Source: Eledone cirrhosa
Lineage: Eukaryota
DNA: 64,000 nt
Direction of reading: 5' to 3'
Assembly (NCBI GenBank): GCA_964016885.1
Contig: OZ024758.1
Span: forward strand, 39,804,001 to 39,868,000
Position 1 is the stretch's first letter. Each line of letters starts with the position of its first letter. Under the pieces are notes generated by a model that was given only the letters and a program-made list of their open reading frames with translations, did no database searches and was not told where the DNA came from. Both the position numbers and the translations under genes were made by a program. Of this stretch, positions 20,250 through 53,567 are shown in pieces.

Positions 20250-20702
20250 TAATATACATATCATTAAACGTATCTCCTACATGTGTATAAATAAATATAC
20301 ATGTATTTTATTAACAATTTTCTGTAGAATCTGTTAAACATGGAAGAAAATGTGGAGACTAAATAAAATTAACGTGTTGGTCACATTAACTTAATAATAT
20401 AACTATATATTAATGAAATATGTCGAAATAAAAGTTGTAATTGTGACAAAAATATTGATTCGGTAGTTTATTATGACCAAGACTACTCATTATCCCACTA
20501 CATCTTTTGTATACTATATATATACTGTATATATACTGTTTATATATATATACACACACACATATAATTGCGTATTCACACATTATCTTAGTAATGAAAT
20601 AATAAGTTTAGTAAATTGTTCAAAAGGCAATTCCTTCCTCAATCATTACATAGATGTGTGTATGTAATAATTATTTTGTATTGTGTGTCTATTTAGGAAT
20701 AT

Positions 20703-21805
20703 GTATGTGTAGATGTGTGTGTGTGTAACACAGTAGATGTGTGTGTATGTAACACAATAGATGTGTGTGTATGTAACCCAGTAGATGTGTGTGTATGTAA
20801 CTCAGCAGATGTGTGTGTGTGTAACACAGTAGATGTGTGTGTATGTAACTCAGCAGATGTGTGTGTATGTAACACAGTAGATGTGTGTGTGTGTGTAACA
20901 CAGTATATGTATTTGTATGTAACACACTAGATGTGTGTGTATATATAACACAGTAGATGTGTATGTAACACAGTAGATGTGTATATATAACACAGTAGAT
21001 GTGTGTATATATAACACAGTAGATGTGTATATATAACACAGTAGATGTGTATGTAACACAGATGTGTATATATAACACAGTAGATGTGTGTGTATGTAAC
21101 ACAGATATGTGTGTATGTAACACAGTAGATGTGTATGTAACACAGTAGATGTGTATATATAACATAGTAGATGTGTGTGTATGTAACACAGATGTGTGTA
21201 TGTAACTCAGCAGATGTGTGTGTGTAACACAGTAGATGTGTGTGTATGTAACTCAGCAGATGTGTGTATGTAACACAGTAGATCAGTAGATGTGTGTGTG
21301 TGTAACACAGTATATGTATGTGTATGTAACACACTAGATGTGTGTGTATATATAACACAGTAGATGTGTATGTAACACAGTAGATGTGTGTGTATGTAAC
21401 ACAGTAGATGTGTATATATAACACAGTAGATGTGTATGTAACACAGTAGATGTGTATATATAACACAGTAGATGTGTGTGTATGTAAACAGATGTGTGTG
21501 TATGTAACACAGTACATGTGTGTATGTAACACAGTAGATGTGTATGTAACACAGTAGATGTGTATATATAACACAGTAGATCTGTGTATATATAACACAG
21601 TAGATGTGTGTGTATGTAACACAGTAGATCTGTGTGCATGTAACACAGTAGATGTGTGTATGTAACAGTATATGTATGTGTATGTAACACACTAGATGTG
21701 TGTGTATATGTAACACAGTAGATGTGTATGTAACACAGTAGATCTGTGTGTATGTAACACAGTACATGTGTGTATGTAACACAGTAGATGTGTGTGTATG
21801 TAACT
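20703..21805. repeat. Variable ~20-26-bp minisatellite GTAACACAGTAGAT(GT)nAT
   Basis: Direct inspection. A shorter array is at 50792-51228. Confidence 0.95.
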
Positions 21806-22339
21806 AAAGTGTAACGTACATTACGAATGGACAACTAAAAGATTTTAACTTGTTTTTTAACAATTCATGGTGGAAAAAAATTTAAATTGTCTCAATTCAG
21901 ACCATAAAGGGCCGCAACACATGGTGTTTGACACACTTACCGGCTACATAGCCTCGGGGTCTATTTTACTGAGACCGGCTACATATCTTCTTCCTAAAAT
22001 CTTCCAACATAATTTTATACAAGAACCACATGTGAAGTTACTAATAAAATAATTAATAATTAAACACTTCAGTAAATCCTTCAAATGATATCTCAGTAAT
22101 GAAATAATTAATAATTGTTATAAATACCTCAAAATTCCTCATTAATTAAACCCAAGACAGGTAAAAACTCCAGAGTCTTTCAATCGGACATGAAACAAAT
22201 TAATTTCTAATGGAAGAAGTAAAGATTTTAAAGTCAGCCAAGGGAGATCACTCTCAGCGACTTATCGTAATTCTCGTTCCGGAATTAATCCGGATTAAAA
22301 TATTCCGGTGTATTTTGTGTGGAGGAAACCGGATTTAGG

Positions 22340-22660
22340 CGGTGATAGCACGCAGTACATGAACGTATGGTTCGTGAGTTCGAATCCCAGACCGGGTGGT
22401 CTGTACGTCGGGGCCTTGAACAAGACACTTTATTTCTCTTTGTTTTATTTTACCCAGCTGGCAAAGATAATAAGTTGTAATAATTATAGTGGAAACGTTG
22501 TTACATAGAATTGTCACACTGAATCTCCCTGAGAAGAATGTCAACGGTATACGTGTCAATGAAATACTCAGACACATTATAATATAAGACGGGTTCTACA
22601 TGTATTTCAAAGGGAAGCCATGCCATACGTCTTACTGAATCTCCCTGAGAACTACGTATA
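22340..22660 (+). mobile_element. tRNA-derived SINE
   Basis: B-box GAGTTCGAATC and core 'CCTTGAACAAGACACTTTATTTC'. Confidence 0.7.
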
Positions 22661-22663
22661 TAC

Positions 22664-23887
22664 TAGTGACTATCAGACATAGTGTATCTAGGATCACATT
22701 ATCTAATGTACAGTACAGTAGTTAGTATTAGTGGCTATAAGACATAGTTTATCTAGGACTACATTATCTAATGTACAGTACAGTAGTTAGTATTAGTGGC
22801 TATAAGACATAGTATATCTAGGACTACATTATCTAATGTACAGTATAGTGGCTATCAGACATAGTGTATCTAGGACTCCATTATCTAATGTACAGAATAG
22901 TGGCTATCAGACATAGTGTACCTAGGACTACATTATCTAATGTACAGTATAGTGGCTATCAGACATAGTGTACCTAAGACTACATTGTCTAATGTACAGT
23001 ATAGTGTCTATCAGACATAGTGTATCTAGGACTACATTGTCTAATGTACAGTATAGTGGCTATCAGTCATAGTGTACCTAGGACTACATTATCTAATGTA
23101 CATTATAGTGGCTATCAGACATAGTGTATCTAGGACTACATTATCTAATGTACAGTATAGTGGCTGTAAGACATAGTATATCTAGGACTACATTATCTAA
23201 TATACAGTATAGTGGCTATCAGACATAGTGTATCTAGGACTACATTATCTAATGTACAGTATAGTGGCTGTAAGACATAGTGTATCTAGGACTACATTAT
23301 CTAATGTAGAGTATAGTGGCTATCAGACATAGTGTATCTAGGACTACATTATCTAATGTACAGTATAGTGGCTATCAGACATAGTGTATCTAGAACTACA
23401 TTATCTAATGTACAGTATAGTGTCTATCAGACATAGTGTACCTAGGACTACATTATCTAATGTACAGTATAGTGGCTATCAGACATAGTGTATCTAGGAC
23501 TACATTATCTAATGTACAGTATAGTGGCTGTAAGACATAGTATATCTAGGACTACATTATCTAATGTACAGTATAGTGTCTATCAGACATAGTGTATCTA
23601 GGACTACATTATCTAACGTACAGTATAGTGGCTATCAGACATAGTGTATCTAGGACTACATTATCTAATGTACAGTATAGTGACTATCAGACATAGTGTA
23701 TCTAGGACTACATTATATAATGTACAGTATAGTGTCTATCAGACATAGTGTACCTAGGACTACATTGTCTAATGTACAGTATAGTGTCTATCAGACATAG
23801 TGTACCTAGGACTACATTGTCTAATGTACAGTATAGTGTCTATCAGACATAGTGTACCTAGGACTACATTGTCTAATGTACAGTATA
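22664..23887. repeat. 52-bp minisatellite (~23 units)
   Basis: Unit gtatagtggctatcagacatagtgtatctaggactacattatctaatgtaca, with internal hairpin TACATTA-TC-TAATGTA. Confidence 0.96.
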
Positions 23888-23927
23888 GCAGTTAGTATTT
23901 GTGGCTATCATTATTATAGACTTCAAG

Positions 23928-24097
23928 TCGGTAGAGGGTCAGACGCCATGCTTTCCAGCATAGTTACGTCCCTTTACGATCTGAGTTCAAATCCCGCCGA
24001 GGTTGACTTTGTCTTTCATCCTTACGGGGTCGATAAAATAAAGTACCAGTAATGCACTGGGTAATTGCTGGCCTTGTGCCTAAAGTAGAAATAATTA
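23928..24097 (+). mobile_element. tRNA-derived SINE (second family)
   Basis: GAGTTCAAATCC B-box and 'CTTTCATCCTTACGGGGTCGATAAAATAAAGTACCAG' core. Confidence 0.85.
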
Positions 24098-24584
24098 TTA
24101 TAGACTTCAAGTAAATCTTTGTCAACTTACCTCCTTCACATATAATCAATGTGTTGTGTTGTTAGTTGTTACTAAACAACCAAAGAAATAATCTCTTTGT
24201 TATCAAATTAAAAGTTTCAAAGATGTTATCAGCTTTATTTCACGACATTAACGTTGGTGTATCTTCTTCATCTTTAGTCATGAATTGATATCTTGTCAGA
24301 ATGAAGTAGTGAGGCTGACTTTATGTCTTTAGCTACAGATTTGATAGGAAATATATATATATTAGGTTGATATGTGGTCTAAAATATATATATTGTCTAT
24401 AAATGACTGATAGCAGATGTTCTGGTGAAATAGTAGTTTTACTACTACAGATTGTAATGGAACTCTTAGTAGACACAATTGTAAAGTAAGAATAGATATG
24501 ACAGTGTAAGACTGATGTCGGGGAAATAAACTTGTGTATATATATATAATTGTTACACAAGATATAATTAGATTAATTAAAGTT

Positions 24585-24772
24585 ATAATTGTTTCTACTC
24601 TAGGCACAAGGCCAGCAATTAACCAGTGCATTACTGGTACTTTATTTTATCGACCCCGTAAGGATGAAAGGCAAAGTCAACCTCGGCAGGATTTGAACTC
24701 AGATCGTAAAGGGACGTAACTATGCTGGAAAGCATGGCGTCCGACCCTCTACCGATACTGCCAATTCACCGC
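24585..24772 (-). mobile_element. tRNA-derived SINE (second family), inverted relative to 23928-24097
   Basis: Near-perfect reverse complement of 23928-24097. Confidence 0.85.
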
Positions 24773-25670
24773 AATGAAGGCAGCAGGTACTCGGTGTCGT
24801 TGTGCATGTTTCAACTCTCTTCCCGGTGTCATACGTAAAAAGTCCCTGATATAATTTAATACCTTCAGACACAGTTCCAATCGTTTTTAGTTTATTGTAA
24901 ATCAGAAAGTATCACTCAATAAAATATCAATTATATATCAATAAGAAAACCTCTAGGTAGTCTCACTGACTGCTAGAAATAGCAGCGATATTACCCATTA
25001 CAACTGCTCTCTCTCTCTATATATATATATATACACACATATATGTACGTATGTATGTATATGTGTATATATGTGTATGAATGAGTGTGTATGTGTGTAT
25101 ATGTGTACATAGGGTTTTGGTATATGTACGTTTGGTGAACATATGTGTATTTACCTGTATGTATGTGTGAGTGTGCGTTCTATACGCATTTATGCGTGTA
25201 TATTTATATATGTATTTATAATTATATGTATATATACACACACGAACATATATTTATATGTGTATTTGGTGCATACAATCGTATGTGTGCGGGTATATGT
25301 GTTGCGCCGGTTTACGTCCGTGCGCGCCTGTTTATGTGTACGTATATGTATATGCATGCATGCCGTGAGTTTTCGCATATGCTCGTGTATAAATGTGTGT
25401 ATGTATATATTTAATTATTATTACTTTTATGATTTTAATAACATCTGTCATTTTCGTTCAACTAATTTATTTACATTATTCTGGACTCCGAAGCCGAGCA
25501 TCATTCAGTTTCCTTAATAGAATATTAGTCTACGACTCCATTTACACCATAAACGTGGTTTTGTCTTTACGTGTAATTGTTGTCACCGCTCCACATAACG
25601 ACGTATTATCTTCTTTTTCCCGTTCATTGCCAGGGAACGTCTTCACGAATCAAAGCATAAATTATTTTCA

Positions 25671-28600
25671 CGAGCTGACGTACCCGGCTTCGCCCGGGTA
25701 AACAGATGATAAAAGAAAAGGTCCCTATTTACTCCCTTCACAACTCTGTATGTTAGACTGACAGACAGGCACACAGACAGATAAACTGGGTGGCGATTGT
25801 GGAACGCCGCACGTATACACACATACACGCACACAAACTTACACACACACCCGTGCACTTACACACACGCACACACTCACACATGTTGATAGTTTTTACT
25901 TTCTGTGGAACGCTGCACGCACGCACACATACATAAACATACGCGCACGTACATACACACGCACACATGTTAATAGTTATTGCTTTCCTTCCCCTCTTAT
26001 TTCCACACACATCACACACACACACACACACGTCTCTACACTGACACATATACATAGTGTATCCAACACAGCGTTCACTTTGCCTCTCTCTCGCCTCTCT
26101 CTCTCATTGGCATTATACATATTAATTTAAGTTTGGCGTCGTTGAGGTGGGCGGAGTTGTTTGAAACCTATGAACCAATGATAATCGAGAATTATGACAC
26201 ATGGAATATTGACATTGTTGAAATTAATATATAGACTAGCTGACGTACCCAGCTTCGCCTGGGTAAACAGATGATAAGAGAAGACAGGTAAAAGAGAAAA
26301 TGTCTGTATTGGGTGTTTCTCTGGTTACAGTGTGAGGCGAGTCCGTGGTGTCTGTGTGATACAAAAAAACAGTAAAAATAATCTTCCAGATATACCAGAT
26401 TCTTCGTTGTCCGGTTTGTGCATAGTATATGAACAATTCTAGGTGCTCCCACCTAGAATAGTGACCTCTAGGAGATGGTTCCTCTTCTGCCTGACTGGAA
26501 AACGTGTATCATTGCATAGACGTGGTTGTTCCACGTTTCTCAAAAGGATGATGGAAGTTCCAATCTGTTATATTATATGTAGATATAGATATAGATAATT
26601 AATAAAAAAGATGTCCGTCAATGTAAAGAAGGTCCCTATTTACTTGAAATGGTTTATACAAATGCCAAATTAATATGGATATGGATAACATGCTTATCTA
26701 TAAGTGGTCAGCTATAATAATAAACCAACAAATTATATGACACAAACATTTATTCAGTAATTTCCAGGCTCTTAGCCACTGAGTAATAGACAGTCAATAT
26801 TGCCCAGAGTTCAACTCGGGGAGGTGGCCTGGTTTAAACTCAAAATGGCGGATCCTTCTACTTCGAAAATAGAATCGTTTTTCAATATTACTCTAGCCCT
26901 GGCCGGCCATAGGCACCAAACTTTTTGCCAGACTCAGCATATGATGAGGTTCTATTACCACTGCAATCAGAAGCGATAAATTTGAAGGCAATTTCTACCA
27001 ATACTTGTTGGTTTTTATTGCTCATTATCGACAATAAATGACATTGAACATAAATGATAACTCTGCCAAAGCTCACAATACAGATGAAAGGAAACCAATG
27101 TCCGAATCATATACGTCACTTATCGATAGCATTAAAGATATGCATACATCAGCTCAAAGCTTCATTATAGACAATATTTAGGTTTGTTCCTCTGTTAGTG
27201 GTATCAATTGCAAATTGTATACCATCAGGATCGCACACTCGAGATGCAGCAACATAGAGTTGCCCATGGCTGGATCATTCAAGCAGACACCGACTCGCTT
27301 GAAAGTCTGTCCCTGTGCCTTGTTGACAGTCATGGAGAAGGCCAAATTGACGGGAAACTGTCTCCTTTGCCAAATAAATGGCAGCAGATCTTCACTTGGT
27401 CTCAGCATGATCCTCGGAATGAGAACCGATTCCTCTCTGCCTGGGAGTTTAGCTTCTAAAACTCTTCCATTAATCAATCTCTCAACAATCAATCTGGTAC
27501 CATTGCAAAGACCCATTTTATGATTGATATTTCTAAGCAATATAATCGGCAAACCCTTTTTCAACCTCAAAATATGTGGGGAAAATCCGGGTATTTGAAG
27601 TGAATTCAGATACTCAGTCGGAACATCCATACTGTTCTGCTGATTAGGCTCCATTGCATCCGCACTGACGGTCAACCATTCCTCTCCAGGAAACATTCCG
27701 GCTACTTGTGAATTTATTTCATCGACCGTTGCATTCGTATGAGTTAGAATAACACGTTCCGATATTCAGGAGATATTCTGCCAAAAAGTTCTGTCCAATG
27801 CCTCCAGCAAATATCTGTGTGCCATTGGAGCCTTGTCCCAAATAATCAGAGACGTATTGCGTATAAGGCCCGCGAGTTCACTTTGTCCTGTAATATTACA
27901 GAAACTCAACTCATCTGGAGCCAATGGAGCCTTGAAGCATGAGTGGAAGGTCCTTCCACCACTCAGCAAAGTGGCAGCGATGCCCCTGGTGGGCACAGGG
28001 AGAGCAATCTTCCTCTGAGCTCTGACTGCCGATAACATAGTGTTGAAACAGAATGTCTTTCCGGTGCCTCCTGGAACATCTATGAAAGCACAAAGTTGCT
28101 CATTAGTGGAAATCGAGTGGAGAGCGCCATCAACCAATTCTCTGTGAGATTGGGTCAACATTGGCATACGTTCATCCACAATACGTTGCTGTTCCAGTGG
28201 AACAAACTGGAATAGTTCCCTCCGATCGAGTGGCAACCGTCTAAGCTGCAATCTCATGTTCAATGCTAAGACACGTTGCCGCATTTCTTCATCAGGAATT
28301 GGTAAATTGAAATCTGTTAAACATTTCAAATGAACTTCGAGCAGTTGCTCAATATTGAGCAAAACAATAGCCTTCATCAAATGTTCATCATAGACCTGAA
28401 GATGATGCCTAAAATCATCAGCCATAATTCCCCAATGGCGTTCAAATAACTCTCTTGGATCGGCAGGATTGCAGAATCCTAGAATCGTGACAAACAACTG
28501 CCTTATTCGAGCTGGCATCTGTGTTGTTCCTGCAGCTTCCATGGCGTTATTCCATTCAGCGTCATCCTGAAGGAGTCCCAGATGCTGACACACAGCCTGG

Positions 28601-31600
28601 TATCTTTTATATTCCACGGCATTGATTGTTTTCAAATCAGCGAAGCTCTGTTTACCTCTCGAAAAATCACTATGCAACAGAATTCGGAGATGAAACACAT
28701 CACCAGATGCTGGATGGACATTACAAACCAGTCCAATAGTCATGAATCTCAACTTTTGTTTTCTATCATTCCATTTCTTTCCCTTCTTATCCCACGTATA
28801 GTGCGAAGGGAAATCGCAGTAGAGTTGCTTTTGATCCGGGTTCAAAGCATGTTCCCTATTATGCTTGAACCACTCAGTCAATTCCGTCTTAGGAGGTGGT
28901 GCGTTAGCAATTCTTTCGGCACCTCTTCTAGTGTCCTTAAAACAGACCATTTGCCTATTCTCTAAGTAAACCGTCAGTTTCTGAACGCTGGGTTTGCGTT
29001 CATTGAGATCAAAATCGAACAATCTCCAGCAAGCTTCGCTAGATCCAATCAAGCGAACATCCTGGAACCTGCCAACTTCATCTCCTTGGTTCGCTTCCTC
29101 ATTCCTGACATTCATCATTGCCCCATCATGACCTTTGTAAACATATTTGAATAGATATTTGCAAGCTTTCACTGAGCTACAAATTTCCACATTAATATGA
29201 CAACGATATTTCATAATCAAATATGGATTGTATGGCACAACCCATTGATTTGTAACCTGTCGACCGTTTACATTTCCGACCAAACCGCCATCGGCAGGCG
29301 ACCGTCTTCTGTATGAGGGATGACATCCCCATCATTCCAGGAAGTGTTCGTGACAAAAGATTTCGGAAAGTGCTTACTGCATTGGCCATTTTTCATGCAA
29401 GGCGCTTTCCGATTTGCCACTCCGCATTGGTTGTGCACCATTGACTTTGCCACCAAGTTGCATAGTGCCTCATTCTCCGGCAGTTCAGCACACACAATGC
29501 TGTCGACATCCTCAGCACATCACAATTTGCAATCTCTATGTAAAATGATCAGCAAATGTGCATGTGGCAATCCTCTTTTTTGGAATTCAATTACGTATGT
29601 AAAAGCAACTATACCTCCAAAGATTCCCTTTTTTTCCACATCATCCATTATCTTTTTCAGATATCCTTTGAATACTCTTGCCACAATATCAGGACGGTCC
29701 TTTGGCTGTTGTCCTGGCAAAAGTGAATCCTTAATATCAGTCCATTCAGGATTGCATGTAACTGTTATAAACAAATCTGGCTTTCCAAACTTTCTGACAA
29801 TAGCCATTGCATCCTGATAGCGAATGTTCATATATCTCGGGCCGCCGATGAACGACGATGGCAAAATGATGCGTCGACCAATTTGCTTGTAATTGGCATC
29901 ATCGGCTGTTATCGCATCCTGTATATTATTATACAATTCAGCTCTGATATGTTGCTGATGTGTAGCTATATAATTTAGCCTTTGATTTTCGATCTTTGCG
30001 TATGCCATACAACAGTATTCCTGGAACAATCTGCTGGCTTGAAATAGCGCATTTCTCTGTTGATTCCTCTCGTTCAAATGGAACGCGTAAAAGTCGCAAA
30101 TCGAATTATTGTGTCTATTGCCACCTCCCTGTTGATGCTGATTCTCATGATCATCTAAATGAACAGACATGTTCCATCCATTTTCACCTTTTGGGAATAA
30201 AAGAACATAATGCAATGGATGGTATGTCCTATTTGACTCATTGATAGTTTTGAGACCACCATCTCTGCGATTGAGGGCGATATCTCTCGATCCAGGCTTA
30301 TCGTCCATCAACACAGCAACTTCACGAAATCCTTCAGGGGCATTATATCGCCGTTCGTGTTGATTCCTTGGCACTGCGTCAGCCTTAATCACCAATGTTT
30401 GTTGCTGAATATTTTGCAGTTCAGCCACCAACATGAAATCCATAACATAAGGATTACACTGTCTAAGCCATGATTGCAAATCACGGATCAAATCACTTAA
30501 CCTTTGCCGTTCAAGTTCAGTTATATTTCCCGGCAACTTCATCCAACCGATCCTGATATCCTCCTCCGATTCACTATAATTTGGATCGTTAATGTAAATT
30601 TGAGCGAATCAAGGCCTCTCCCCTGGGGTAACTTCTAAATTACCGATACAATGATACAAACGGCATTGAATGACAACATTCGGTTGCCATGCTCCACTCT
30701 CAAACATCTCACTAACTCTCTGCGATGCTAAAGCTAATAAATTGTTAATTTGCCGCGAATATTTGCACAGTAATCTACCTCGGTCTCATTGATCACCCCA
30801 CATACTTAGTATTTTAAACTCCGGTGACTCCCCATCATCCGGCATTCGCAAGGGTTCTAGTTGAACTGCTCCTTTGTGACAGCACATTGTGGTCCACGTC
30901 TTTTCGTGCCACCAAAGCAATGCTCCACAATGTGGAGACCCTGCTCGTCCACCAATCTGACAATGACACGGTTGCCATGATCCATTTTTAATATCATTTG
31001 TTCGCCTTCTAGCCTCTTTACTGGAATGAGGAGCACTTTGCGACGCATTCCTTGAACTTCTGTATTGCGCTGGCGCTGTTCAGCCAGCTCCTCTTCATCC
31101 ATCGGAGCACGCCATTGCTGCTGAATTCTGGCCACCTGCTGATGATGCTCAGCCAGTTCGTTTTTCAACCATCGCAGCACTCCGTCGCCGCTGTAGTTCA
31201 CTGTTTGATAAAGTCGAATTGCTTTTCTTATCAGTATTCATTTGGAGCAATTGTAAAAAAAATGACACAATAATAAATATAAAAGATGTCCGTCAATGTA
31301 AAGAAAGGTCCCTATTTACTCCCTTCACAACTCTGTGTATGACAGACAGGCACACAGACAGATAAACTGCGCGGCGATTGTGGAACGTCACACGCATACA
31401 CGCATGGAAACGCGCACACACACGCAAACTTACACACTCACACATGTTGATAGTTTTTACTTTCTGTGGAACACTGCACGCACGCACACAGACATAAACA
31501 TACGCGCACATACATACACACGCATACATGTTAATAGTTATTGAACACAGCATTCACACTCTCCCCTCTCACTCCCTCATTGGCATTATGCATATTAATT

Positions 31601-31708
31601 TCAGTTTGGCGTCGTTGGGGTGGGCGGAGTCCTTTGAAACCTATGAACCAATGATAATCGAGAATTGTGACACACGGAATACTGACGTTCTTCAAATTAA
31701 TATATAGA
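25671..31708 (-). mobile_element. Composite Helitron (RepHel module plus two non-autonomous units)
   Basis: 5' A|TC at 31708. 3' hairpin ACCC(G/A)GGCGAAGC(C/T)GGGT followed by CTAG (26236) or CTCG (25671). RepHel ORF fragments inside. Confidence 0.9.
27178..31201 (-). pseudogene. Helitron RepHel (HUH replication initiator + Pif1-like helicase), disrupted
   Basis: LFITVTCNPEW, EFQKRGLPHAH, KYLFKYVYKG, GGTGKT, FSMTVNKAQGQT. In-frame stops, frameshifts and a 360-bp deletion at 27788/9. Confidence 0.95.
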
Positions 31709-32505
31709 TATATATATATCATCATCATCATCATCATCATTTTACGTCCGCTTTTCTCTGCTTGCAAGCCATGTGCCTCTTCCTATATATACATATATAC
31801 TATATACATATACACACATATACATATATATATGTATGTATATATATATATGTATATATATATACGTACTTAATACATGCATACATTTATTTTTTAAAAA
31901 TTAATTCAGTTCTTAACACGCAGGATTAAAATTGTTTTTTAAAAAACTAATTAACCCACGTGTATATTATTTTACTTTCTTGTGTTTCGCGATTGCCTCT
32001 CTTTTACGCTTTGTGACGCTGTGAAATTCCTCAGTCTAGGACTGCTGGAATTTCAAATTTGGCGGTCATTATGATGCGTGAAAGGACGACTTAGCTGACA
32101 CGAAAAATAACTGCGGTAAGAAATTTTTTCTTATATCAATGTTTGAAGGGCATCCAGTGATGATTTATAAGGCCCACCTGCATATGTTCTTACAGAAAAA
32201 TATGTAGGCTTCTACATAAACCGGAAACATTCTCCCAACTTGTAGAAAACTTATAATGAAACAATTGTTTGGAAAGAGAGATATATTTTAATTTTAATTA
32301 TATCTTATATAAAATAATACAACTGGCTTTCCACAAAATACATATAGTTAGCACCCCAAACACAAAATTGGGATTATACTAAGGTATATCCTAATGTTTG
32401 TTGAGTGAGATGGTAGCCAGTCAGAGTTTAGCTTAAAGCTTTCTCTGTTATTGTATTAAATATATGTATATATATATATATATATGTATCTATATATATA
32501 TATAT

Positions 32506-35464
32506 CACCTTGATCGACCAGTCTGTCGGGCGTCCATTCGGCGCCGCTGGTCACAGCACGCCGTCCATTCCTCTCTGGATCGTGCTTTCCTCATCCATCT
32601 AGTCCCAATCATATTCCTAAAATGATCTGCCACCTTCATGGAGGCCTTCCGAGTGGTCGCTTCCACTCGCACGGGTACCACTCGGCAACTGCGCAGGTCC
32701 AGTGATTATCGGTGAACCGGGCGACGTGTCCAGCCCATCTGAACTTGCTGCGTATATATTGCGCGATGACGTCCCTCACACCGGACTTCTAGCATTGATC
32801 TCTCCATGGCTCTTTGAGCCGTTACCAGCCTCTGCTCTTCTCTCTTCGTTGTAGCCCAAGATTCACTGCCATATAACATTGCAGGTAAAACTGTGCTATT
32901 GAAGGGGTTGGCGCGGGTGGTCTTGTCCAACCTCCCCTTGAGCACATCCCTTATGCCGCTGAACGCCTTCCATCCGGCCCTTACTCTCTGCGAGATCAGC
33001 CTCTCAATGTATTGGCGCATGTTCACTTCTTGTCCTAGGTAGACGTATTCCTCCACCTCCTCTATTTCATCACCGCCAACCACCATTCGACCTGTTGGTA
33101 CGTTGTCGGACCGCATGAAGTTCGTTTTCATGCTGTTCATCTTGAGGCCTACTGCAGATCTTTTGATGTCGAGCTCCGTCAGCATGGTCTGAAGCCGATC
33201 CGTGGTTTCAGCGATGAGTACGATGTCATCAGCGAAACGGATGTGGGTAAGTATCTCCTCATTGATGGTGACACCGCCTTGCCAGTCAATGCCTCTGATG
33301 ATCTGCTCGAGACACGCGGTGAAAACTTTTGGAGAGATCGTATCTCCTTGCTTCACTCCCTTCTCGACCGGCACTCGTACGGGTGATGACAGCAGAGCTG
33401 TGTCGGTGGTGCATCCGGAATTCGCCTCCTTGAGCAGTTGAACGTATTGCGTCTCGACTCCTTGCCTCTGCAGCGAGTTCAGCACTGCGTTGATTTCGAC
33501 GCTGTCGAAGGCCTTCTTGTAGTCTACGAACGCGACGCAAAGAGGCATCTTGTACTCTTTTGCTTGCTCAAGCAGTTGTGTCAGAGTAAATATGTGGTCC
33601 ATCATGCTGTAGTTCTTCTGGAAGCCAGCTTGCTCTTTCGGTTGCTGTTCGTCCAGATGATGTGATAACCTGTTCAGGATTATCTTCGTGAACAGCTTGT
33701 ACACGTGAGACAGCAGGAATATGGGTCGGTAGTTCTTCAGATCTTCTCTATCGTCCTTCTTTTATAGCAGGATCGTATTCGACTCTTTCCACTGCGAGGG
33801 TATTCTTCCCTCGTCCAGATCGTGTGTGAATCGCTCGGCGAGGATTTTCCAGAGCTGCTCTCCGCCTGACTTCAACACCTCCGATGTTATGCCGTTTTTC
33901 CCTGGCGCCTTTCCGCTTTTCATCACGCCGACGGCTCTTTCGACCTCACCGACAAGGATGGGTGGCACATTTTCTTCCTGTTGGAGTGACGGCAACGGCT
34001 GCACATTCCGGGCAGACTTGAAGAGCTTGGTGTAGAAGTCTTCGTAAATCTTTTCCATCTCATTCTTGTCGCTGACCGGTACTCCAGCTGTGTTCTTCAG
34101 GGTCGTCACCTCCGATCTGTACATTGCCATGTCCGTCTCGCATTTCTTGAGGTTCTTCTTTTCCTCTGCGGCCTTCAGGAGCTTCCCCATCCGGTATGCC
34201 TCGAAGTCACTCTTCAGTTGACGCATCACTCTGCTGAGAAGGGAATATTCGAGGTGATCTTCAGCTGTCCCCTTCATAATCTTCCTCTTCTCAAGCAACT
34301 TCATAGTTTCCTCCCAGACTCTTCCCTTCCACTCCTTCGGGCACACACCCTTAGCCTTCCTCAAGCACTCCTTCAGTTTCCTTATCAGTGAGTCGTAGTC
34401 AGCGTCTATGCCGTCTCCTTTACACCACTTTTCCTGCATGATGGCTTCCTGCTGCTGCGCCTCGTTGAAGACCCAGACGCGTTCTCCCTTTGCCGCCAAA
34501 TGCAGCGCCTTCTTCTCCCTCGTCCGATCGATGACGACCTTCGCCCTCACCAGACGATGATCACTGCCAGTGTTAAATGGCGTTATGACGGAGACGTCCT
34601 GCAGTATACGTGGCTTGTCGACCAGGATGTAGTCGATCTCGTTTCCGTGCTCAGAATTTAGCGATACCCAGGTCCATCTTTTCTCCTCCTTCTTCCTGAA
34701 TAGGCTGGTTCCGATGTAGAGCCGTCTCATCTCCGCCATGGTGACCAGACACTCTCCTCTCTCATTTCGATCTCCTAGGCCGAATTTTCCTACATACTCT
34801 TCCCCTTGCCGTCCCTGTCCGACCTTTGCGTTGAAGTCTCCCATCACGACGGTGTAAGTGGACTTCACAGTTAGCACTTTGTCTAGCTGGCGATAGAATT
34901 CTTCCACTTCCTCGTCGTCGCTGGCACTTGTGGGAGCGTAGGTCTGGATGATCTTGAGGGTGGCCTTCCCTGAGAGGTTTACGTTCAGTACACCAATCCG
35001 TGACGATATGAACTGGCAAGAAGCGACCTTCGAAGCCCATTCCTTGCTTACGATAAACCCTATACCAATCTGGCATCCTCTGCTTTCCCGAGTCTCACGG
35101 CGTATCCATCTTGCCATCGGGAATTCTCCTCCTTCTTCTGGCGGGTCTCGCACAGCCCTAACACGTCCCACCTGATCTTCTTCTTCTCCTCCATTAGGTG
35201 GTTCAGTCCTTGCCCCCCTGCCAAAGACCTGCAGTTGTATGTGCATATGGCAAGGTTAGTCCTGTTCCATGGCGGCCTTCGGGAACCTGTGATTCTTAGC
35301 AGCCTTTCGTCGCTCGGGTTGCACTCCGCCGTCATGGAGTAGCCCGATTGACTCGCAGGGTACTGAGGCCCTTTTCTTCGTGCTGTTTTAACCATAAGAT
35401 GACGCCATCCTATTGGCTGGGCGGGCAGGCCGGTACCTCTTCAGTTTAGCTAGCTTTTGAACTC
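32506..35464 (-). mobile_element. Near full-length RTE-clade LINE (APE + RT), frameshifted
   Basis: CTYNCR, YAPTS, MGDFNAKVG, IDYIL, SDHRL, QAGF, GVKQGD, RFADD. GC-rich, embedded in (TA)n. Confidence 0.95.
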
Positions 35465-35739
35465 TATATATATATGCAAGTATGTATATGCAAGTATATA
35501 TATGCAAGTATATATATGCAAGTATGTATGTATGTATACATACATACATATATGTATACAGACGTACAGTAGTATGTATATATATACATACATGCACACA
35601 TATATATATGTACGTATCAGTTTACCGAACATTTATTATAATGTTCGGTTTGTTTGTTTGTAAACAAACAAACAGCCCGAATTACGCCGTACAGTGTTTA
35701 GGCAACCACGTCACCTTTTTGTTCAACACTGACACAGGA

Positions 35740-35782
35740 ACGATGTACTAGTTTCAAGCTTATTAGCTATCATCAGCACCGT
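35740..35782 (-). ncRNA. Minimal type I hammerhead ribozyme motif
   Basis: ACGGTG CTGATGA T AGCT AATA AGCT T GAAA CTAG TA CATCGT, with palindromic CUAG in the stem III position. Confidence 0.75.
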
Positions 35783-36303
35783 ATACCTTCCTGCTAGATG
35801 GTTGACCGTCTGAAAGTATATACTTTCCTTATGCATATTAACGGCTGAGCAGCCTAATTTGCATATCGAGTGAGTTCAGTCGCCGGGCACACCGAAAACG
35901 ATAAATGGAATAGAATGAAACGAAATTTCATTTCTCACTCTTAGTACGGCACTTACTTAAATGTAAGTATGTATGTATGTATACATACATACATATATGT
36001 ATACAGACGCACAGTAGTATGTATATATATACATACATGCACACATATATATATGCACGTATCGGTTTACCGAACATTTATTATAATGTTCGGTTTATTT
36101 GTTTGTAAACAAACAAACAGCCCGAATTACGCCGTACAGTGTTTAGGCAACCACGTCACCTTCGTTTCATTCTATTCCATTTATCGTTTTCGGTGTGCCC
36201 GGCCGACTGAACTCACTCAATATGCAAATTAGGCTGCTCAGCCATTAATATGCATAAGGAAAGTATATACTTTCAGATGTTCAACCATCTAGCAGGAAGG
36301 TAT

Positions 36304-36346
36304 ACGGTGCTGACGATAGCTAATAAGCTTGAAATTAGTACATTGT
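36304..36346 (+). ncRNA. Minimal type I hammerhead ribozyme motif (variant copy)
   Basis: ACGGTG CTGACGA T AGCT AATA AGCT T GAAA TTAG TA CATTGT. Confidence 0.65.
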
Positions 36347-36557
36347 TCCTGTGTCAGTGTTGAACAAAAAGGTGACGTGGTTGCCTTAACACTGTACGGC
36401 GTAATTCGGGCTGTTTACAAACAAACAAACCGGACATTATAATAAATGTTCAGTAAACCGATACGTGCATATATATATGTGTGCATGTATGTATATATAT
36501 ACATACTACTGTACGTCTGTATACATATATGTATGTACGTATACATACATACATACT

Positions 36558-36617
<60 letters not shown>

Positions 36618-36618
36618 C

Positions 36619-36653
<35 letters not shown>

Positions 36654-36781
36654 ATTATATAGAACAATAAAATATGGCACCAGATGTTCAATCCAAGACC
36701 TTATGATTGAGAACAGCACAACTGTAACCTCTAAGCTATATATCTTCACACAGACTTTCTGATAAAGACAGAAGTACCCAC

Positions 36782-36919
36782 CTGACTGACAGTTGTCTCC
36801 CCTGAAACCAGCTGCACATCCAACACTAGAACACACCCCAGATTTAATGTCGCAATGATCGTTGTCAGCACAGTGGCACAAATACTGACAGTTCAAGCCA
36901 AAATAACCCTTTTTACATT
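36782..36919 (-). CDS. Internal exon of a multiple-EGF-like-domain (MEGF10/11/SREC-like) protein
   Basis: tttttcag|...|gtgggt, 138 bp, phase 1-1. Encodes CKKGYFGLNCQYLCHCADNDHCDIKSGVCSSVGCAAGFRGDNCQS. Confidence 0.88.
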
Positions 36920-38261: not shown

Positions 38262-38440
38262 TAATTGTTTCTACTTTAGGCACAAGGTCAGCAATTATCC
38301 CAGTGTATTACTGGCACTTTATTTTATCGACCCCGTAAGGATGAAAGGCAAAGTTAACTTCGGTGGGATTTGAACTCAGATTGTAAAGGGACATAACTAT
38401 GCTGGAAAGCACGGCATCCGACTCTCTACCGATACTGCCA
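38262..38440 (-). mobile_element. tRNA-derived SINE (second family)
   Basis: Homologous to 24585-24765. Confidence 0.85.
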
Positions 38441-39156
38441 TAATATAGTTAGACTAGTTAGAGGTAGAAATAAAAGACTATTAAACATATGTAGTCATTA
38501 ATAATATAGTTATACTAGTTAGTAGTAAAAGTGAAAGAGTAATACACCTATGTAGTCATTAATAATATAGTTATACTAGTTAGTAGTAAAAGTAATAGAG
38601 TAATAAACCTATGTAGTCATTAATAATATAGTTATACTAGTTAGTAGTAAAAGTAAAAGAGTAATACACCTATGTAGCCATTAATAATATAGTTATACTA
38701 GTTAGTAGTAAAAGTAAAAGAGTAATAAACCTATGTAGACATTAATAATATAGTTATACTAGTTAGTAGTAAAAGTGAAAGAGTAATACACCTATGTAGC
38801 CATTAATAATATAGTTATACTAGTTAGTAGTAAACGTAAAAGAGTAATAAACCTATGTAGGGATTAATAATATAGTTATACTAGTTAGTAGTAAAAGTGA
38901 AAGAGTAATAAACCTATGTAGCCATTAATAATATAGTTATACTAGTTAGTAGTAAAAGTGAAAGAGTAATACACCTATGTAGTCATTAATAATTTAGTTA
39001 TACTAGTTAGTAGTAAAAGTGAAAGAGTAATAAACCTATGTAGCCATTAATAATATAGTTATACTAGTTAGTAGTAAAAGTAAAAGAGTAATAAACATAT
39101 GTAGACATTAATAATATAGTTATACTAGTTAGTAGTAAACGTAAAAGAGTATTAAA
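38440..39156. repeat. 61-bp AT-rich minisatellite (~12 units)
   Basis: Unit taataatatagttatactagttagtagtaaaagtaaaagagtaataaacctatgtagtcat. Confidence 0.95.
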
Positions 39157-39161
39157 CCAAC

Positions 39162-39299
39162 CAGTTTGACAATCAGTTCCTATATAGCCTGGTTCACAGT
39201 TGCCCTCTTCACAAACACCATTGGTTCTGTTGCAGTATTTACTTTCTTCACAATGACAAACCTTTTGACAGTTAGACCCAAAAGTATTGCTTGGACAGA
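39162..39299 (-). CDS. Internal exon of the multiple-EGF-like-domain protein (upstream of 36782-36919)
   Basis: tttcatccag|...|gttggt, 138 bp, phase 1-1. Encodes CPSNTFGSNCQKVCHCEESKYCNRTNGVCEEGNCEPGYIGTDCQT. Confidence 0.88.
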
Positions 39300-44129: not shown

Positions 44130-45160
44130 TGATTTCATTTATTAGCCACAAGGGCCGACATGTAGGGGACAATACAAAGACAGGGACAGTGGGGGTTTAG
44201 AATAAGGTCGAGTAAAAGTGCACAATGGCAAGTCTAATTTAACAATGAAGATATAAAAATATAAAATAAACTATTCATAAATATAACAAAATAAATTCCC
44301 CGATAGGGGTGGACGACCCTGAACCACCCTGCGCTTCTAGGGCACCCAGGGAGAGCACCCCTCTCCTCAAGTTAGCTAGCCTATAGGCGCATGGTCAGAG
44401 TAGGCCCATTCACACAGGCCATTCTCGCCACATTCACCCACCTTTTAGCAAATGTACTGGGGGGGCAGCACTTCTCTCTCCACCCTCACCTTCCTTTCCA
44501 GGTGAAACTTGAAGAAGTTGATGAGGGATTGGCTGAAGAGAAAAGTGTCTGTCTTTAGTCCTTTCAACCTGGTCCACCATATAATCTCTTTCGCAACTGC
44601 CACCAGACAGAGGAAATGTCCTGCTCTTTCTGACCTAAGGAAGGCGGTGGATCGATCTTCACTATGGACTCGGCCGATAGCCGGATTCGTTCCACACGTG
44701 ACAGTAGCTGTTCGACATAACTCTACAAGTCAGTAATGCATGGACATTGGACAAGTGCGTGCAGAACGGTTTCGTCGTTCTGTGCGCATCTTGTGCAGGT
44801 TCATCTGACAGCACTTCCGTGCCTGTAGAGTTTATCCCGAACCGGCAGTGCCCCCCGGTAGCACTGCCAAGCGAGGGATTTCTGGAAATTGTCCATCGTC
44901 CCCAGCTCAAAAGTCCTCCGGTACAGACTGGTCAGTTCGACTTCGTCGAGGCCCAAAGCTTCTCCGAGTGCGTCATTGCACTTGCCCACCATTAATCCTC
45001 TATAGAACTCGAGAGTGGAAGTTCCACTGATCGCATTGCCTGCTTGGTAGAGGGCAGTGAGTGCCTGGCAACATTCCAGGTGCCAGTCACCCACTCTCGG
45101 TCTCTTCTTGCTAGTACAGCGTTCCTTTGTCAGTGTTGAACAAACGAGCAACGATGGTTG
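44130..45160 (-). mobile_element. L1/Tx1-like LINE 3' end (C-terminal CCHC zf-RVT + 3' UTR)
   Basis: 'SLAWQCYRGALPVRDKL...CTRCAQNDETVLHALVQC', AATAAA and (ATT)n tail. Confidence 0.75.
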
Positions 45161-45387
45161 CTGGACACTACGGCTTCATGCGGGATGTTTGTTTACAAAC
45201 ACACCGAGCATTATAATAAATGTTCGGTGAATCCATACGTACATATATATATGTGTGCATGTATGTATATATATATACATACTACTGTACGTCTGTATAC
45301 ATATATGTATGTACGTGTACATACTTATATTTAAGTAAAAGCCGTACTAAGAGTGGGAAATGAAATTTCGTTTCATTTTTTCCGTTT

Positions 45388-45419
<32 letters not shown>

Positions 45420-45420
45420 G

Positions 45421-46901
45421 TATAAGGTAAAGGGGATGCTCTGGAGAGGAGCAATTATAGGGGCATAAAGCTGATGGATCAGGTTATGAAAGTGGCAGAG
45501 AGAATATTAGCGCAACTGATTAGAGAAAGGGTCAATTTAGATGAGATGCAGTTTGGTTTTGTGCTCTCGGAAAAGTACAACAGATGCCCTCTTCTTAGTG
45601 AGGAAACTACAAGAGAGGTTCTTAGAGAAGAACAAGCAACTATACTTAGCTTTTGTTGACCTAGAGAAGGCCTTTGATAGGTACCCCGATCTGTCATCTG
45701 GTGGTCCCTAAGGAAACTAGGTGTAGAGGAATGGCTTGTGAGGACAGTGCAAGCTATGTACAGGGGTGCTGTCAGTAAAGTGAGAATAGGAATGGAGTTT
45801 AGTGAGGAATTCCAGATGCAAGTAGGTGTAAATCAAGGTTCGGTCCTCAGCCCACTCTTGTTCATTATAGTCCTCCAAACCATAACAGAGGAGTTTAAAA
45901 TTGGATGCCCATGGCAACTTCTCTATGCTGATGATCTGGTTCTTATAGCAGAATCAGTAGAGGAGCTAGAGAATAAATTCTACCTATGGAAACAGTAGTT
46001 GGAATCAAGAGGCCTGAGAGTGAACATAGCTAATACAAAAGCGTTGATGAGTAGAAAAGAGGACAATACTCTGATTCCATCAGAGAAATGGCCATGTTCG
46101 ATATGTAGGAAAGGAACTGGCATAAATCCCATAAAATGCAGATCTTGGGTACACAAGAGATGTAGTGGGATAGTAGGCAAACTAACAGGTAGGGAAAACT
46201 ACATATGCAGTAGATGTACAGGGACATTTGACAGTAGGAGTCGCAGTGATAGACACATTTTTCAAATGCAGGTGGGTTCTATAGAAGTGGTTGATATTTT
46301 CCGGTACCTAGGTGATCAGATTAGCATGGGAGGGGGATGTTCCAAGGCTATAGTATCCAGAATAAGGACGGGTTGGAAGAAGTTTAGGGAGCTGCTTTCT
46401 CTGTTGACAAAGAAGGGTTTCTCCCTGCATATGAAAGGGCGGTTATATGATGCCTGTGTGAGATGCGCGATGCCGAATGATAGTAAGACATGGGCAGCAA
46501 TTGCAGAGGATATGCGACAGTTGGAGAGAAATGAAGCAAGCATGCTCCGTTGGATGTGCAATGTCAATGTGTGTGAACGACCAAGCATAGATGAGTTGAG
46601 AAAGAAACTGGGTATAAGCGGGATAAGTTGGGTGTGCAAGAGAGAAGACTGAGATGGTATGGACATGTGATGTGCATGGAGCATGACCCCTGTGTAAAGA
46701 GGTGCCAAGAAATCCCAGCAGAAGGAAGACGCAGAAGAGGTAGACCACGTAAAACATGGGTGGAGGTGGTGAGAGAAAACCTGAGATCACTGAAATTCAC
46801 AGAGGAGATGACGGAGAACAGTGACAAGTGGAGAGATGCTGTGCTGAATAAGACCTGTCCCATCCTTGCAAGCAGGGAAAAACGGACGTAAAATGATGAT
46901 G
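45421..46901 (+). mobile_element. 5'-truncated RTE LINE (RT + Cys-rich insert)
   Basis: GVNQGSVLSPLLF, LYADDL, KWPCSICRKG, LRWYGHV, GRPRKTW, (GAT)n tail. Confidence 0.92.
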
Positions 46902-49912: not shown

Positions 49913-52087
49913 TATATATTTTATATATACATATATATGTTAAAAGATGATTGATATATATATCTACACACAAATGTATATTTATATATATATATATAAA
50001 TATATATAAATATATGTATATATATATATAAAGATATATATACTCTTACGTGTATACGTCTGAAAATGTATATATGTATGTAAACACATACCTAAAAATG
50101 CATGTATACATATAGATGGACAGTTATACATATACAATAACTTATTTCTATACATATACCACAAGGCATGGAGCTGCCAACTAACCAGATCTCCCTCATA
50201 ATGGACCAGCTAGATCCCAAAATACAGGCCTGCTAGCCAACACACAGTCCCAATAAATGTAAGTTACAGTGCAGCTATCTGGACAGACTTAAGACTACAC
50301 ATTATCCTACTACATCTTTTGTATACTATATATATACTGTATATATACTGTTTATATATATAATTATACATATAATTGTGTATTCACACATTATCTTAGT
50401 AATGAAATAATAATTTTAGTAAATTGTTCAAAATTCTTCATTAACCCTTTTCGTAGAAACCCAGCCAAAATAGGTTCTCCTTCTATGGAAATGGTTCCTA
50501 TCTAAATTAAAGTCTTCCAACGAAATTCTATATAACAACCATATGTTAAGTTACTATGTTAGTAATTAACTAACAATTGTGATAAATAGCCCAAATTATT
50601 CATAATTATTTGAAATACAAGGTTCATAATTATAATAAAATCTTCGAATAGGCTACGAAGCCGGTAAACCTTAAAGGTACGCAACACACACGTCGCTATA
50701 GCGTTTCACCAGGCAATTCCTTCCTCAATCATTACATAGATGTGTGTGTATGTACTAAATATTTTGTATTGTGTGTCTATTTATGAATATGTATGTGTAG
50801 ATGTGTGTGTGTGTAACACAGTAGATGTGTGTGTGTGTAACCCAGTAGATGTGTGTGTATGTCACTCAGCAGATGTGTGTGTATGTAACTCAGCAGATGT
50901 GCGTGTATGTAACACAGTAGATGTGTGTGTGTGTGTAACACAGTATATGTATGTGTATGTAACACACTAGATGTGTGTGTATATATAACACAGTAGATGT
51001 GTATGTAACACAGTAGATGTGTGTATATGTAACACAGTTGATGTGTATATATAACACAGATGTGTATGTAACACAGTAGATGTGTATATATAACACAGTA
51101 GATGTGTATATATAACACAGTAGATGTGTGTGTATGTAACACAGTAGATCTGTGTGTATGTAACACAGTACATGTGTGTATGTAACACAGTAGATGTGTG
51201 TATGTAACACAGTAGATGTGTATGTAACTAAAGTGTAACGTACGTTACGAATGGACAACTAAAAGATTTTAACTTGTTTTTTAACAATTGATGGTGGAAA
51301 AAAATTTAAATTGTCTCAATTCAGACCATAAAGGGCCGCAACACACGGTGTTTGACACACTTACCGGCCACATAGCCTCGGAGTCTATTTTACTGAGACC
51401 GGCTACATATCTTCTTCCTAAAATCTTCCAACATAATTTTATTCAAGAACCACATATTAAGTTACTAATAAAATAATTAATAATTAAAAACTTCAGTAAA
51501 TCCTTCAAATGATATCTCAGTAATGAAATAATTAATAATTGTTATAAATACCTCAAAATTCCTCATTAATTAAACCCAAGACAGGTAAAAACTCCAGAGT
51601 CTTTCAATCGGACATGAAACAAATTAATTTCTAATGGAAGAAGTAAAGATTTTAAAGTCAGCCAAGGGAGATCACTCTCAGCGACTTATTGTAATTCTTG
51701 TTCCTGAATTAATCCGGATGAAAATATTCTGGTGTATTTTGTGTGGAGGAAACCGGATTTAGGCGGTGATAGCACGCAATACATGAACGTATGGTTCGTG
51801 AGTTCGAATCCCATACCGGGTGGTCTGTACGTCGGGGCCTTGAACAAGACACTTTATTTCTCATTGTTTTATTTCACCCAGCTGGCAAAAATAATAAGTT
51901 GTAATAATTATAGTGGAAATGTTGTTACATAGAATTGTCACACTGAATCTCCCTGAGAAGAATGTCAACGGTATACGTGTCAATGAAATACTCAGACACA
52001 TTATAATATAAGATGGGTTCTACATGTATTTCAAAGGGAAGCCATGCCATACGTCTTGCTGAATCTCCCTGAGAACTACGTATATAC

Positions 52088-53488: not shown

Positions 53489-53567
<79 letters not shown>

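What the first reader, a model, noticed from the sequence alone, without database searches (positions are those of the whole stretch)
35519..36560. Two minimal hammerhead ribozymes on opposite strands inside a fold-back repeat within a host intron
Seen: blocks are arranged X-Y-Z-X-Y'-X'. Y carries ACGGUG-CUGAUGA-U-AGCU(AAUA)AGCU-U-GAAA-CUAG-UA/CAUCGU (minus, 35740-35782), with a variant on plus (36304-36346). Known: Penelope-like elements carry minimal hammerheads with a palindromic loop in place of stem III in their pseudo-LTRs, and these cleave as dimers. Inference: this is an ORF-less Penelope/retrozyme-like unit. The minus copy is sense to the EGF gene, ~1 kb downstream of an exon, and the ~400-bp arms would form long dsRNA. 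The U.U pair at the base of stem II is atypical.
Basis: partly seen in the sequence, partly recalled or inferred. Interest (0 to 1): 0.8.

Follow-up and report, generated by a model that had tools for sequence, protein, structure and literature searches.

The report
Aged ribozyme repeat, Penelope-type double insertion
This 1-kb mirror-image repeat just after an exon is a slightly aged copy of a very abundant non-coding jumping element that carries a predicted self-cutting RNA motif, was likely pasted in from both ends of a DNA break by a Penelope-type retrotransposon enzyme, and is predicted not to cut the host RNA here.

Summary
Both hammerhead motifs are real (minus 35782-35740, plus 36304-36346; 0 as tight in 200 shuffles). 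They are not 'minimal': helices of 6, 4 and 2 bp with a palindromic helix III match the canonical metazoan type I form, and a U.U at the base of helix II is already described in an axolotl retrozyme. The six blocks are one 445-nt ORF-less unit read twice, back to back: 1.45 units on minus, 0.9 on plus. Both arms stop at the same unit position in (TA)n and share a rare allele. Public reads show a very abundant family; among the variant rows shown, changes inside the motif fall only on N7, loop II and one helix I pair (G.U, U.G, A-U). Best reading: a retrozyme-like parasite of Penelope-like elements, copied from both ends of a break. At this locus each strand has one ribozyme, the plus copy is decayed, and the fold-back is predicted to mask both. 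Cleavage, circular RNA and a partner element were not shown. This scan reported the same layout before, on other DNA of this and other genomes.

The parts
35516..36162 (-). Arm A: 647 nt, 1.45 head-to-tail copies of the 445-nt unit (unit positions +29 to +445, then +1 to +230; +1 is the base after the predicted cut)
35718..36162 (-). One full 445-nt monomer; 37% G+C; longest stop-free frame 50 aa sense, 83 aa antisense; folds far below shuffles (z -8.6, 0 of 100 as low), partly through simple-sequence hairpins
35740..35782 (-). Type I hammerhead, intact copy: helix I 35782-35777 with 35745-35740, core 35776-35770 and 35755-35752, U.U at 35769/35756, helix II 4 bp, palindromic helix III segment 35752-35747, predicted cut after 35746
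36161..36562 (+). Arm B: 402 nt, inverted 5'-truncated copy (unit +267 to +445, then +1 to +230); 14 substitutions in 399 aligned bases against arm A, 8 of CpG type
36304..36346 (+). Type I hammerhead, decayed copy: N7 = C is the family majority, but C15.2 to U breaks the helix III palindrome and a C to U change weakens helix I
36161..36162 (.). Head-to-head joint of the two 5' ends with a 2-nt overlap; arm B starts next to the centre of an 18-nt near-palindrome of the unit (16 of 18; 35917-35934 in arm A)
35901..35960 (-). Block Z, unit +231 to +290: the 60 nt between the 3' end used by both arms here (+230) and the 3' end used by the third copy and by contigs in reads (+290); candidate 'tail'
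35462..35523 (-). Left target: four repeats, 14 nt apart, of the arm A end, then a short (TA)n; the 5' end of an RTE-type LINE follows
36560..36655 (+). Right target: (TA)n then (CA)n microsatellite
45111..45389 (+). Third, 83%-identical copy, unit -6 to +290, ending in (TA)n; carries the same X-to-Z link independently; lacks the ribozyme core
36782..36919 (-). Host EGF-like exon, 138 nt, AG and GT ends; context, not part of the element
39162..39299 (-). Preceding EGF-like exon, 138 nt, AG and GT ends; context

Best explanation
This is one insertion of an abundant 445-base non-coding repeat with a type I hammerhead motif, laid down as two back-to-back copies that end at the same base in a (TA)n tract, likely because a borrowed Penelope-type enzyme cut both DNA strands and copied the same uncut or circular RNA from each end. 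Shown: the unit, its closed order, the absence of an ORF, the two arms, their common end, the microsatellite target, the abundance and the variant pattern. Inferred: fixed internal start sites for reverse transcription at +230 and +290; a template continuous across the cut site and longer than one unit (tandem transcript or circle); joining of the two truncated 5' ends through a 2-nt overlap; cleavage as a dimer in the source copies. Predicted: at this locus the ribozyme is silent, because each strand holds one motif, the monomer prefers a fold that pairs the core with the cut site, and the fold-back sequesters it; the likely footprint on the host RNA is about 400 bp of double-stranded RNA.
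For: Period 445 with arm A covering 1.45 units and both arms crossing the cut site. X-to-Z link repeated in the 83% copy at 45111-45389; Z-to-Y link in both arms and in contigs of other copies, e.g. X5 record 18 (35773-35931) and X2 records 4 and 6. Both arms end at +230 and both carry the base at 35795 that at most 0.4% of contig depth (X1, X2) and 4-5% of raw reads (X23, X24) carry. A second end at +290 into (TA)n: third copy, 3 contigs in X6, and 44 and 45 contigs in X1 and X2 whose loose-end consensus matches it. 12 of 15 joints shown (105 in all) in X23 change strand; 8 of the 12 read as head-to-head from their side lengths. 8,595 and 8,039 contigs, and 69,286 of 12.47 million and 34,313 of 12.79 million raw reads, lie on the unit. 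Motif variants among rows shown: only N7, loop II and the pair 35779/35743, whose two changes track each other (0.54/0.50, 0.05/0.06, 0.51/0.47, 0.04/0.06 in the two read directions of X23 and X24). Active dimer of the minus motif scores -19.0 kcal/mol against -20.8 for the best dimer and -17.4 for two monomers. Papers: partial tandem plus inverted 5'-truncated copy plus optional tail plus (TA)n bias are the usual Penelope-like layout (PMC8557442, passages); a purified Penelope-like protein cuts and extends both strands and starts at two internal sites that bound the tail (PMC11167929, parts 1-2 of 4).
Against: No Penelope-type RT or GIY-YIG frame in the window and no partner found elsewhere, with no genome to search. 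No run of two complete motifs on one strand was seen anywhere. Contig depth falls about tenfold over 35870-35900, the Z-to-Y link; indels and 3' ends explain part, but many copies may not close the unit. The +230 end could not be tested across the family, as the tool skipped 35951-36055. 48 of 88 and 13 of 53 variant rows were not shown, so rarer core changes are not excluded. The helix I frequencies do not track in X5 (0.57/0.13), are not phased, and may be one inherited event. The strand-changing joints come from restriction-based libraries with 1-10 start places each; 2 of the 12 and both sit on likely restriction sites, and none of those shown is in contigs. The same layout has another published explanation, self-priming on an antisense template (PMC3846280, passages).
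Confidence: 0.68

Rival explanations
1. The repeat is made of stubs of an ordinary autonomous Penelope-like element (pseudo-LTR plus tail); the closed 445-nt order arose from an internal deletion or from stubs landing on each other and is a minor form.
For: Inverted and partial-tandem stubs are the norm for these elements (PMC8557442; PMC4209133 reports pairs of motifs 100-700 bp apart on opposite strands and reads them as truncated elements). Tenfold depth dip at the Z-to-Y link. A divergent upstream sequence leaves the unit at 35787 in 1,183 reads of X24 and 3 contigs of X5.
Against: The same Z-to-Y link stands in both arms and in other copies; loose ends shown at 35876 and 35882 continue as unit sequence and those at 35901 and 35914 run into (TA)n, with no ORF-like continuation among 22 of 546 and 18 of 416 rows shown. 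The motif is of the canonical, retrozyme type, not the min-HHR type.
Confidence: 0.2
2. Same element, other chemistry: the inverted arm arises from one priming event followed by fold-back self-priming or a template switch at a hairpin, not from priming at both DNA ends.
For: Arm B starts beside the centre of an 18-nt near-palindrome; PMC3846280 (passages) reads palindromes at head-to-head joints as self-priming on an antisense template.
Against: The joint is not a mirror: arm A starts at +29 and arm B at +267, and arm B is not a copy of the adjacent arm A sequence. Head-to-head joints in X23 use many different 5' points. Both outer ends coincide at +230.
Confidence: 0.08
3. The minus motif is an active intronic ribozyme that cuts the EGF-like pre-mRNA and regulates the gene.
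For: The minus copy is intact, sense to the gene and 1 kb from the donor site.
Against: One motif per strand; monomer helix I probability 0.02 or less; 41 of 43 bases predicted paired to the other arm, which is transcribed first. The element is one of a very large family and shows neutral-looking CpG decay.
Confidence: 0.04

Closest known systems
Metazoan non-LTR retrozymes (Cervera and de la Pena 2020, PMC7229834, parts 2-4 of 6 read, supplement not readable; Li, Clavereau and Pollet 2026, bioRxiv 10.64898/2026.07.22.740005, parts 1-3 of 5 read)
   Same: Non-coding unit within 150-450 bp, G+C under 50%, one type I hammerhead per unit, strongly self-paired, head-to-tail order; U.U at the base of helix II and a 2-bp helix III as in axolotl HHR_Amex2 (text only; figure not seen); common in introns (42-44% of Xenopus copies).
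   Different: Only 1.45 units here, so no two motifs in a row; an inverted second arm and fixed 3' ends in (TA)n, which I did not see described for retrozymes in the parts read; cleavage and circular RNA not shown.
Insertions of endonuclease-bearing Penelope-like elements (Craig et al. 2021, PMC8557442, passages; Arkhipova et al. 2013, PMC3846280, passages; Frangieh et al. 2024, PMC11167929, parts 1-2 of 4)
   Same: Partial tandem, adjacent inverted 5'-truncated copy in head-to-head order, (TA)n target, hammerhead upstream of the 3' end, two alternative 3' ends.
   Different: No RT-GIY-YIG ORF; candidate tail is 60 nt, not 30-40; both ends of this insertion lack it.
min-HHR of metazoan pseudo-LTRs (Cervera and de la Pena 2014, PMC4209133, parts 1-2 of 4 read)
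   Same: Type I topology, palindromic 15.2-16.2 segment, probable dimer requirement, opposite-strand pairs 100-700 bp apart.
   Different: Helix I 6 bp and helix II 4 bp instead of 4-5 and 7-8 bp; U.U instead of G10.1-C11.1; helix III present.
Non-autonomous Chlamys elements such as MRC1 (PMC8557442, one passage)
   Same: ORF-less dependants of Penelope-like elements with head-to-tail insertions.
   Different: Green-algal, and their clade mostly lacks canonical hammerheads; no sequence relation tested.

Membership tests
Type I hammerhead, canonical metazoan form | Core CUGANGA, GAAA, UH in type I order | tested here: met
   both copies
Type I hammerhead, canonical metazoan form | Helix I about 6 bp, helix II 4 bp, helix III 1-2 bp with a small palindromic loop | tested here: met
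   palindrome intact in minus copy, broken in plus copy
Type I hammerhead, canonical metazoan form | Core and stems kept across genomic copies | tested here: met
   among 40 of 88 and 40 of 53 rows shown, motif changes only at N7, loop II and one helix I pair; rows not shown leave rarer changes open
Type I hammerhead, canonical metazoan form | Loop 1-loop 2 tertiary contact | tested here: inconclusive
   an extended helix with a bulge is predicted, but common variants at 35735 and 35788-35790 break it
Type I hammerhead, canonical metazoan form | Self-cleavage | not testable with these tools
   needs transcription assay
min-HHR of pseudo-LTRs | Helix II 7-8 bp, helix I 4-5 bp, G10.1-C11.1 | tested here: not met
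   against PMC4209133
Metazoan non-LTR retrozyme | Non-coding unit of 150-450 bp, G+C under 50%, one type I hammerhead | tested here: met
   445 nt, 37%, no frame over 83 aa
Metazoan non-LTR retrozyme | [quoted passage not shown] 2026) | tested here: not met
   this locus has one motif per strand; so it is not filed as an active retrozyme
Metazoan non-LTR retrozyme | Multimeric arrays elsewhere in the genome | tested here: inconclusive
   no genome; contigs too short, though some bridge the Z-to-Y link
Metazoan non-LTR retrozyme | Expressed as linear and circular monomer RNA | not testable with these tools
   no RNA run could be laid
Penelope-like insertion layout | Partial tandem with adjacent inverted 5'-truncated copy | tested here: met
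Penelope-like insertion layout | AT-rich or microsatellite target | tested here: met
   third copy and loose ends likewise
Penelope-like insertion layout | Optional tail between two alternative 3' ends | tested here: inconclusive
   ends at +230 (two arms of one insertion) and +290 (third copy, contigs); +230 not testable in reads
Autonomous Penelope-like element | RT plus GIY-YIG ORF | tested here: not met
   34 of the window's 61 frames of 120 aa or more scanned with Pfam and a six-frame motif look found none

The most novel reading that the evidence does not exclude
A circular 445-nt ribozyme RNA is copied round the circle by a Penelope-type dimer from both ends of one double-strand break, starting at fixed internal sites 60 nt apart; insertions like this one would then be direct sequence proof that animal retrozymes ride on Penelope-like enzymes and that the inverted pseudo-LTR comes from twin priming.
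Probability: 0.4. Interest if true: 0.6.

Novelty: new member of a known kind. Interest (0 to 1): 0.33.

Why it matters
Which enzyme spreads animal retrozymes has been proposed from co-occurrence and pseudo-LTR similarity (PMC7229834; bioRxiv 10.64898/2026.07.22.740005), and how the inverted end of Penelope-like insertions forms is named as open (PMC8557442). A short ORF-less template with two arms, fixed ends and a shared rare allele is a handy test object for both. This locus is a modest example: aged, under two units long, without a partner. For the host it would be a long double-stranded RNA in a probable intron, the preferred substrate of A-to-I editing, which is very high in octopus and hits Penelope repeats in lizard (PMC5625713, passages); this is inference only.

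Tried and rejected
Rfam: no hammerhead at gathering score; the microRNA matches are simple-sequence noise. No whole genome held. Motif pattern: 0 matches in metagenome, viral and prokaryote contigs. Read ends at 35856, 35859, 35924, 35927 and the large loose-end piles at 35922-35924 sit on AATT sites, and the one at 35833 on ATGCAT, so I treat them as library artefacts, not as element ends. The joint 36162 to 35718 (10,363 reads, 21 contigs in X2) only shows that X follows Y, not tandem arrays. 5' truncation at the cut site was looked for and not found: arm A starts at +29, the third copy at -6. The exon peptide found no relative (weak search). The hAT frame did not name the host; a LINE fragment had one named animal match among 26, Octopus bimaculoides, 64% over 37%, so an octopod host is only probable. 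Paper searches; none listed a paper on cephalopod hammerhead repeats, and two cephalopod repeat papers have no occurrence of 'hammerhead' or 'ribozyme' in the main text; the supplement of PMC7229834 could not be read and may list molluscan examples, as may Repbase or Dfam, which were not searched. No look-alike of this sequence among earlier scan findings.

Full report
Observation. Both motifs stand at the stated places. The minus copy at 35782-35740 has helix I of 6 bp, the core CUGAUGA, a U.U pair, helix II of 4 bp with a 4-nt loop, GAAA, a palindromic 6-nt helix III segment and a predicted cut after 35746. The plus copy at 36304-36346 differs at three places. A descriptor found 4 motifs in the window; 200 shuffles gave 0.055 loose and 0.0 tight motifs on average. 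Rfam gives only a sub-threshold HH9 match to the minus copy. Two 138-nt EGF-like exons with AG and GT ends lie on minus at 39299-39162 and 36919-36782. No later exon was found in the window, so the intron is probable, not shown. The host is probably an octopod: one named animal match for a LINE fragment, and earlier scan notes on this genome say the same (unchecked).

Anatomy. Read in the ribozyme's sense, the six blocks are one 445-nt unit. With +1 as the base after the cut, arm A (36162 to 35516, minus) runs +29 to +445 and on to +230; arm B (36161 to 36562, plus) runs +267 to +445 and on to +230. The 5' ends meet with a 2-nt overlap. Both 3' ends stop at the same base and run into (TA)n; the last two bases are ambiguous with the target. 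The unit has no frame over 83 aa, 37% G+C, and folds strongly (z -8.6). A third copy at 45111-45389, 83% identical, runs -6 to +290 and also ends in (TA)n. The arms differ by 14 substitutions in 399 bases, 8 of CpG type, so the insertion is not fresh. No Penelope-type coding frame was found: Pfam on 34 of 61 long frames gave hAT, Helitron and AP-endonuclease LINE parts only, and a six-frame motif look gave nothing credible.

The family. No genome is held, so I used public runs. Twenty runs under 17 coded organism labels hold part of the stretch; three runs of one sample hold 73% of its words. I laid 7 of the 24 listed runs. In organism A, 8,595 (X1) and 8,039 (X2) contigs and 0.56% (X23) and 0.27% (X24) of raw restriction-library reads lie on the unit. 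These are not copy numbers, but they mark a very abundant repeat. Of the variant rows shown (40 of 88 at 5%, 40 of 53 at 10%), those inside the 43-nt motif are N7 (U to C, about three quarters of contig depth in X1 and X2), one loop II base, and the helix I pair 35779/35743, seen as G.U, U.G and A-U. The two changes behind U.G have matching shares in both read directions of two samples (0.54/0.50, 0.05/0.06, 0.51/0.47, 0.04/0.06), roughly in X1, X2, X4 and X6, and not in X5 (0.57/0.13). They are unphased and may be one event. No core, helix II, helix III or U.U change is among the rows shown. A post-hoc chance for four variable positions to fall on seven tolerant places is 0.0003, or 0.02 if all of helix I counts as tolerant. 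Loose ends at 35901 (3 contigs, X6) and 35914 (44 and 45 contigs, X1 and X2) match the +290 end into (TA)n. Twelve of 15 joints shown in X23 change strand; in 8 the side length equals the distance back to the restriction site at 35924, which makes them head-to-head like this locus, with varied 5' points. Both arms here carry the base at 35795 that is rare in the family (0.4% of contig depth, 4-5% of reads), which fits one template or one source copy for both arms; gene conversion between arms is not excluded. Against: depth drops about tenfold across 35870-35900, the +230 end lay in a stretch the tool skipped, and library chimeras cannot be ruled out for the joints.

How it likely works. Penelope-like insertions are described as partial tandems with an adjacent inverted 5'-truncated copy, an optional tail and a (TA)n bias (PMC8557442, passages). 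A purified protein of this class cuts and extends both strands of AT-rich DNA and starts at two internal sites downstream of the hammerhead that bound the tail; uncut RNA is the main substrate and the ribozyme needs the protein (PMC11167929). Read against that, +230 and +290 are likely the two start sites, both DNA ends were primed at +230, and the two truncated copies were joined. Because both arms cross the cut site and arm A exceeds one unit, the template was a tandem transcript or a circle; the sequence cannot tell which. Self-priming on an antisense template is the published alternative for head-to-head repeats (PMC3846280); arm B starting beside a palindrome centre keeps it alive, but the joint is not a mirror.

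The ribozyme here. Folding predicts that a lone motif pairs its core with the cut-site strand (helix I probability 0.02 or less). For the minus copy the active dimer lies within 2 kcal/mol of the best dimer and below two monomers; for the plus copy it is 13 kcal/mol above. These energies ignore tertiary contacts. In a read-through RNA of either strand the complementary arm is made first, and 41 or 42 of 43 motif bases are predicted to pair with it. Cleavage of the host RNA is therefore unlikely; long double-stranded RNA is the likely product if the region is transcribed.

Comparison. By PMC4209133 the motif is the canonical metazoan type I form, not the min-HHR, and opposite-strand pairs 100-700 bp apart were already noted there. 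PMC7229834 describes retrozymes with units of 150-450 bp, an axolotl motif with U.U at the base of helix II that cleaves 22% as a monomer and better as a dimer, and proposes Penelope-like elements as the mobiliser. The 2026 preprint supports that by co-occurrence and pseudo-LTR kinship, and found cleavage in only 1 of 9 dimers tested. The element works like a retrozyme and sits like a Penelope-like insertion. It fails the two-motifs-in-a-row criterion at this locus and has no ORF, so I file it as a retrozyme-like, non-autonomous Penelope-type repeat. Searches listed no paper on such a family in cephalopods; supplements and repeat libraries were not seen. Earlier scan notes describe the same two-armed layout for other units on other DNA of this genome and in other genomes; my reading was recorded before them, and they are not independent support.

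Verdict. Real, correctly spotted, partly mislabelled. New member of a known kind. Interest 0.33; the twin-priming and circle reading would deserve about 0.6 if shown.

Noticed in passing
window 18222-18285 (+) and 19402-19465 (+): Two further type I hammerhead-like motifs of another family, 1,180 nt apart on one strand, with an extra base after A9, a longer helix II that differs between the copies on both sides, and TA-palindromic helix III; about 95 nt alignable; closer to the min-HHR of pseudo-LTRs.
   Followed up: partly
window 35472-35523: The end of arm A is repeated four times at 14-nt spacing, all with the same changed base; repeated priming or later slippage.
   Followed up: no
window about 20600-35189 and 50700-64000: Segmental duplication about 29 kb apart, 93-98% identical, holding a Helitron and an RTE-type LINE; it runs to the window edge, so the element may be duplicated just beyond it.
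   Followed up: no
window 10196-12925 (+): Open 909-aa hAT-type transposase frame (DUF4371, dimerisation domain); best named relatives 45% in fish and frog.
   Followed up: partly
window 5823-7716, 38318-39158, 22656-23897, 52085-52853: Minisatellite arrays with periods of 61, 61, 52 and 52 nt.
   Followed up: no
window 45999-46652 (+): LINE RT fragment whose best matches are short contigs, one labelled as bacterial, several with a PHD-finger domain; likely animal LINE DNA in metagenome bins.
   Followed up: no
window 35787: A different upstream sequence leaves the unit here in 1,183 reads of X24 and 3 contigs of X5; may be a subfamily or the end of a partner element.
   Followed up: no
window 2880-2937 (+): tRNA-like match at 33.9 bits, probably a SINE head.
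   Followed up: no
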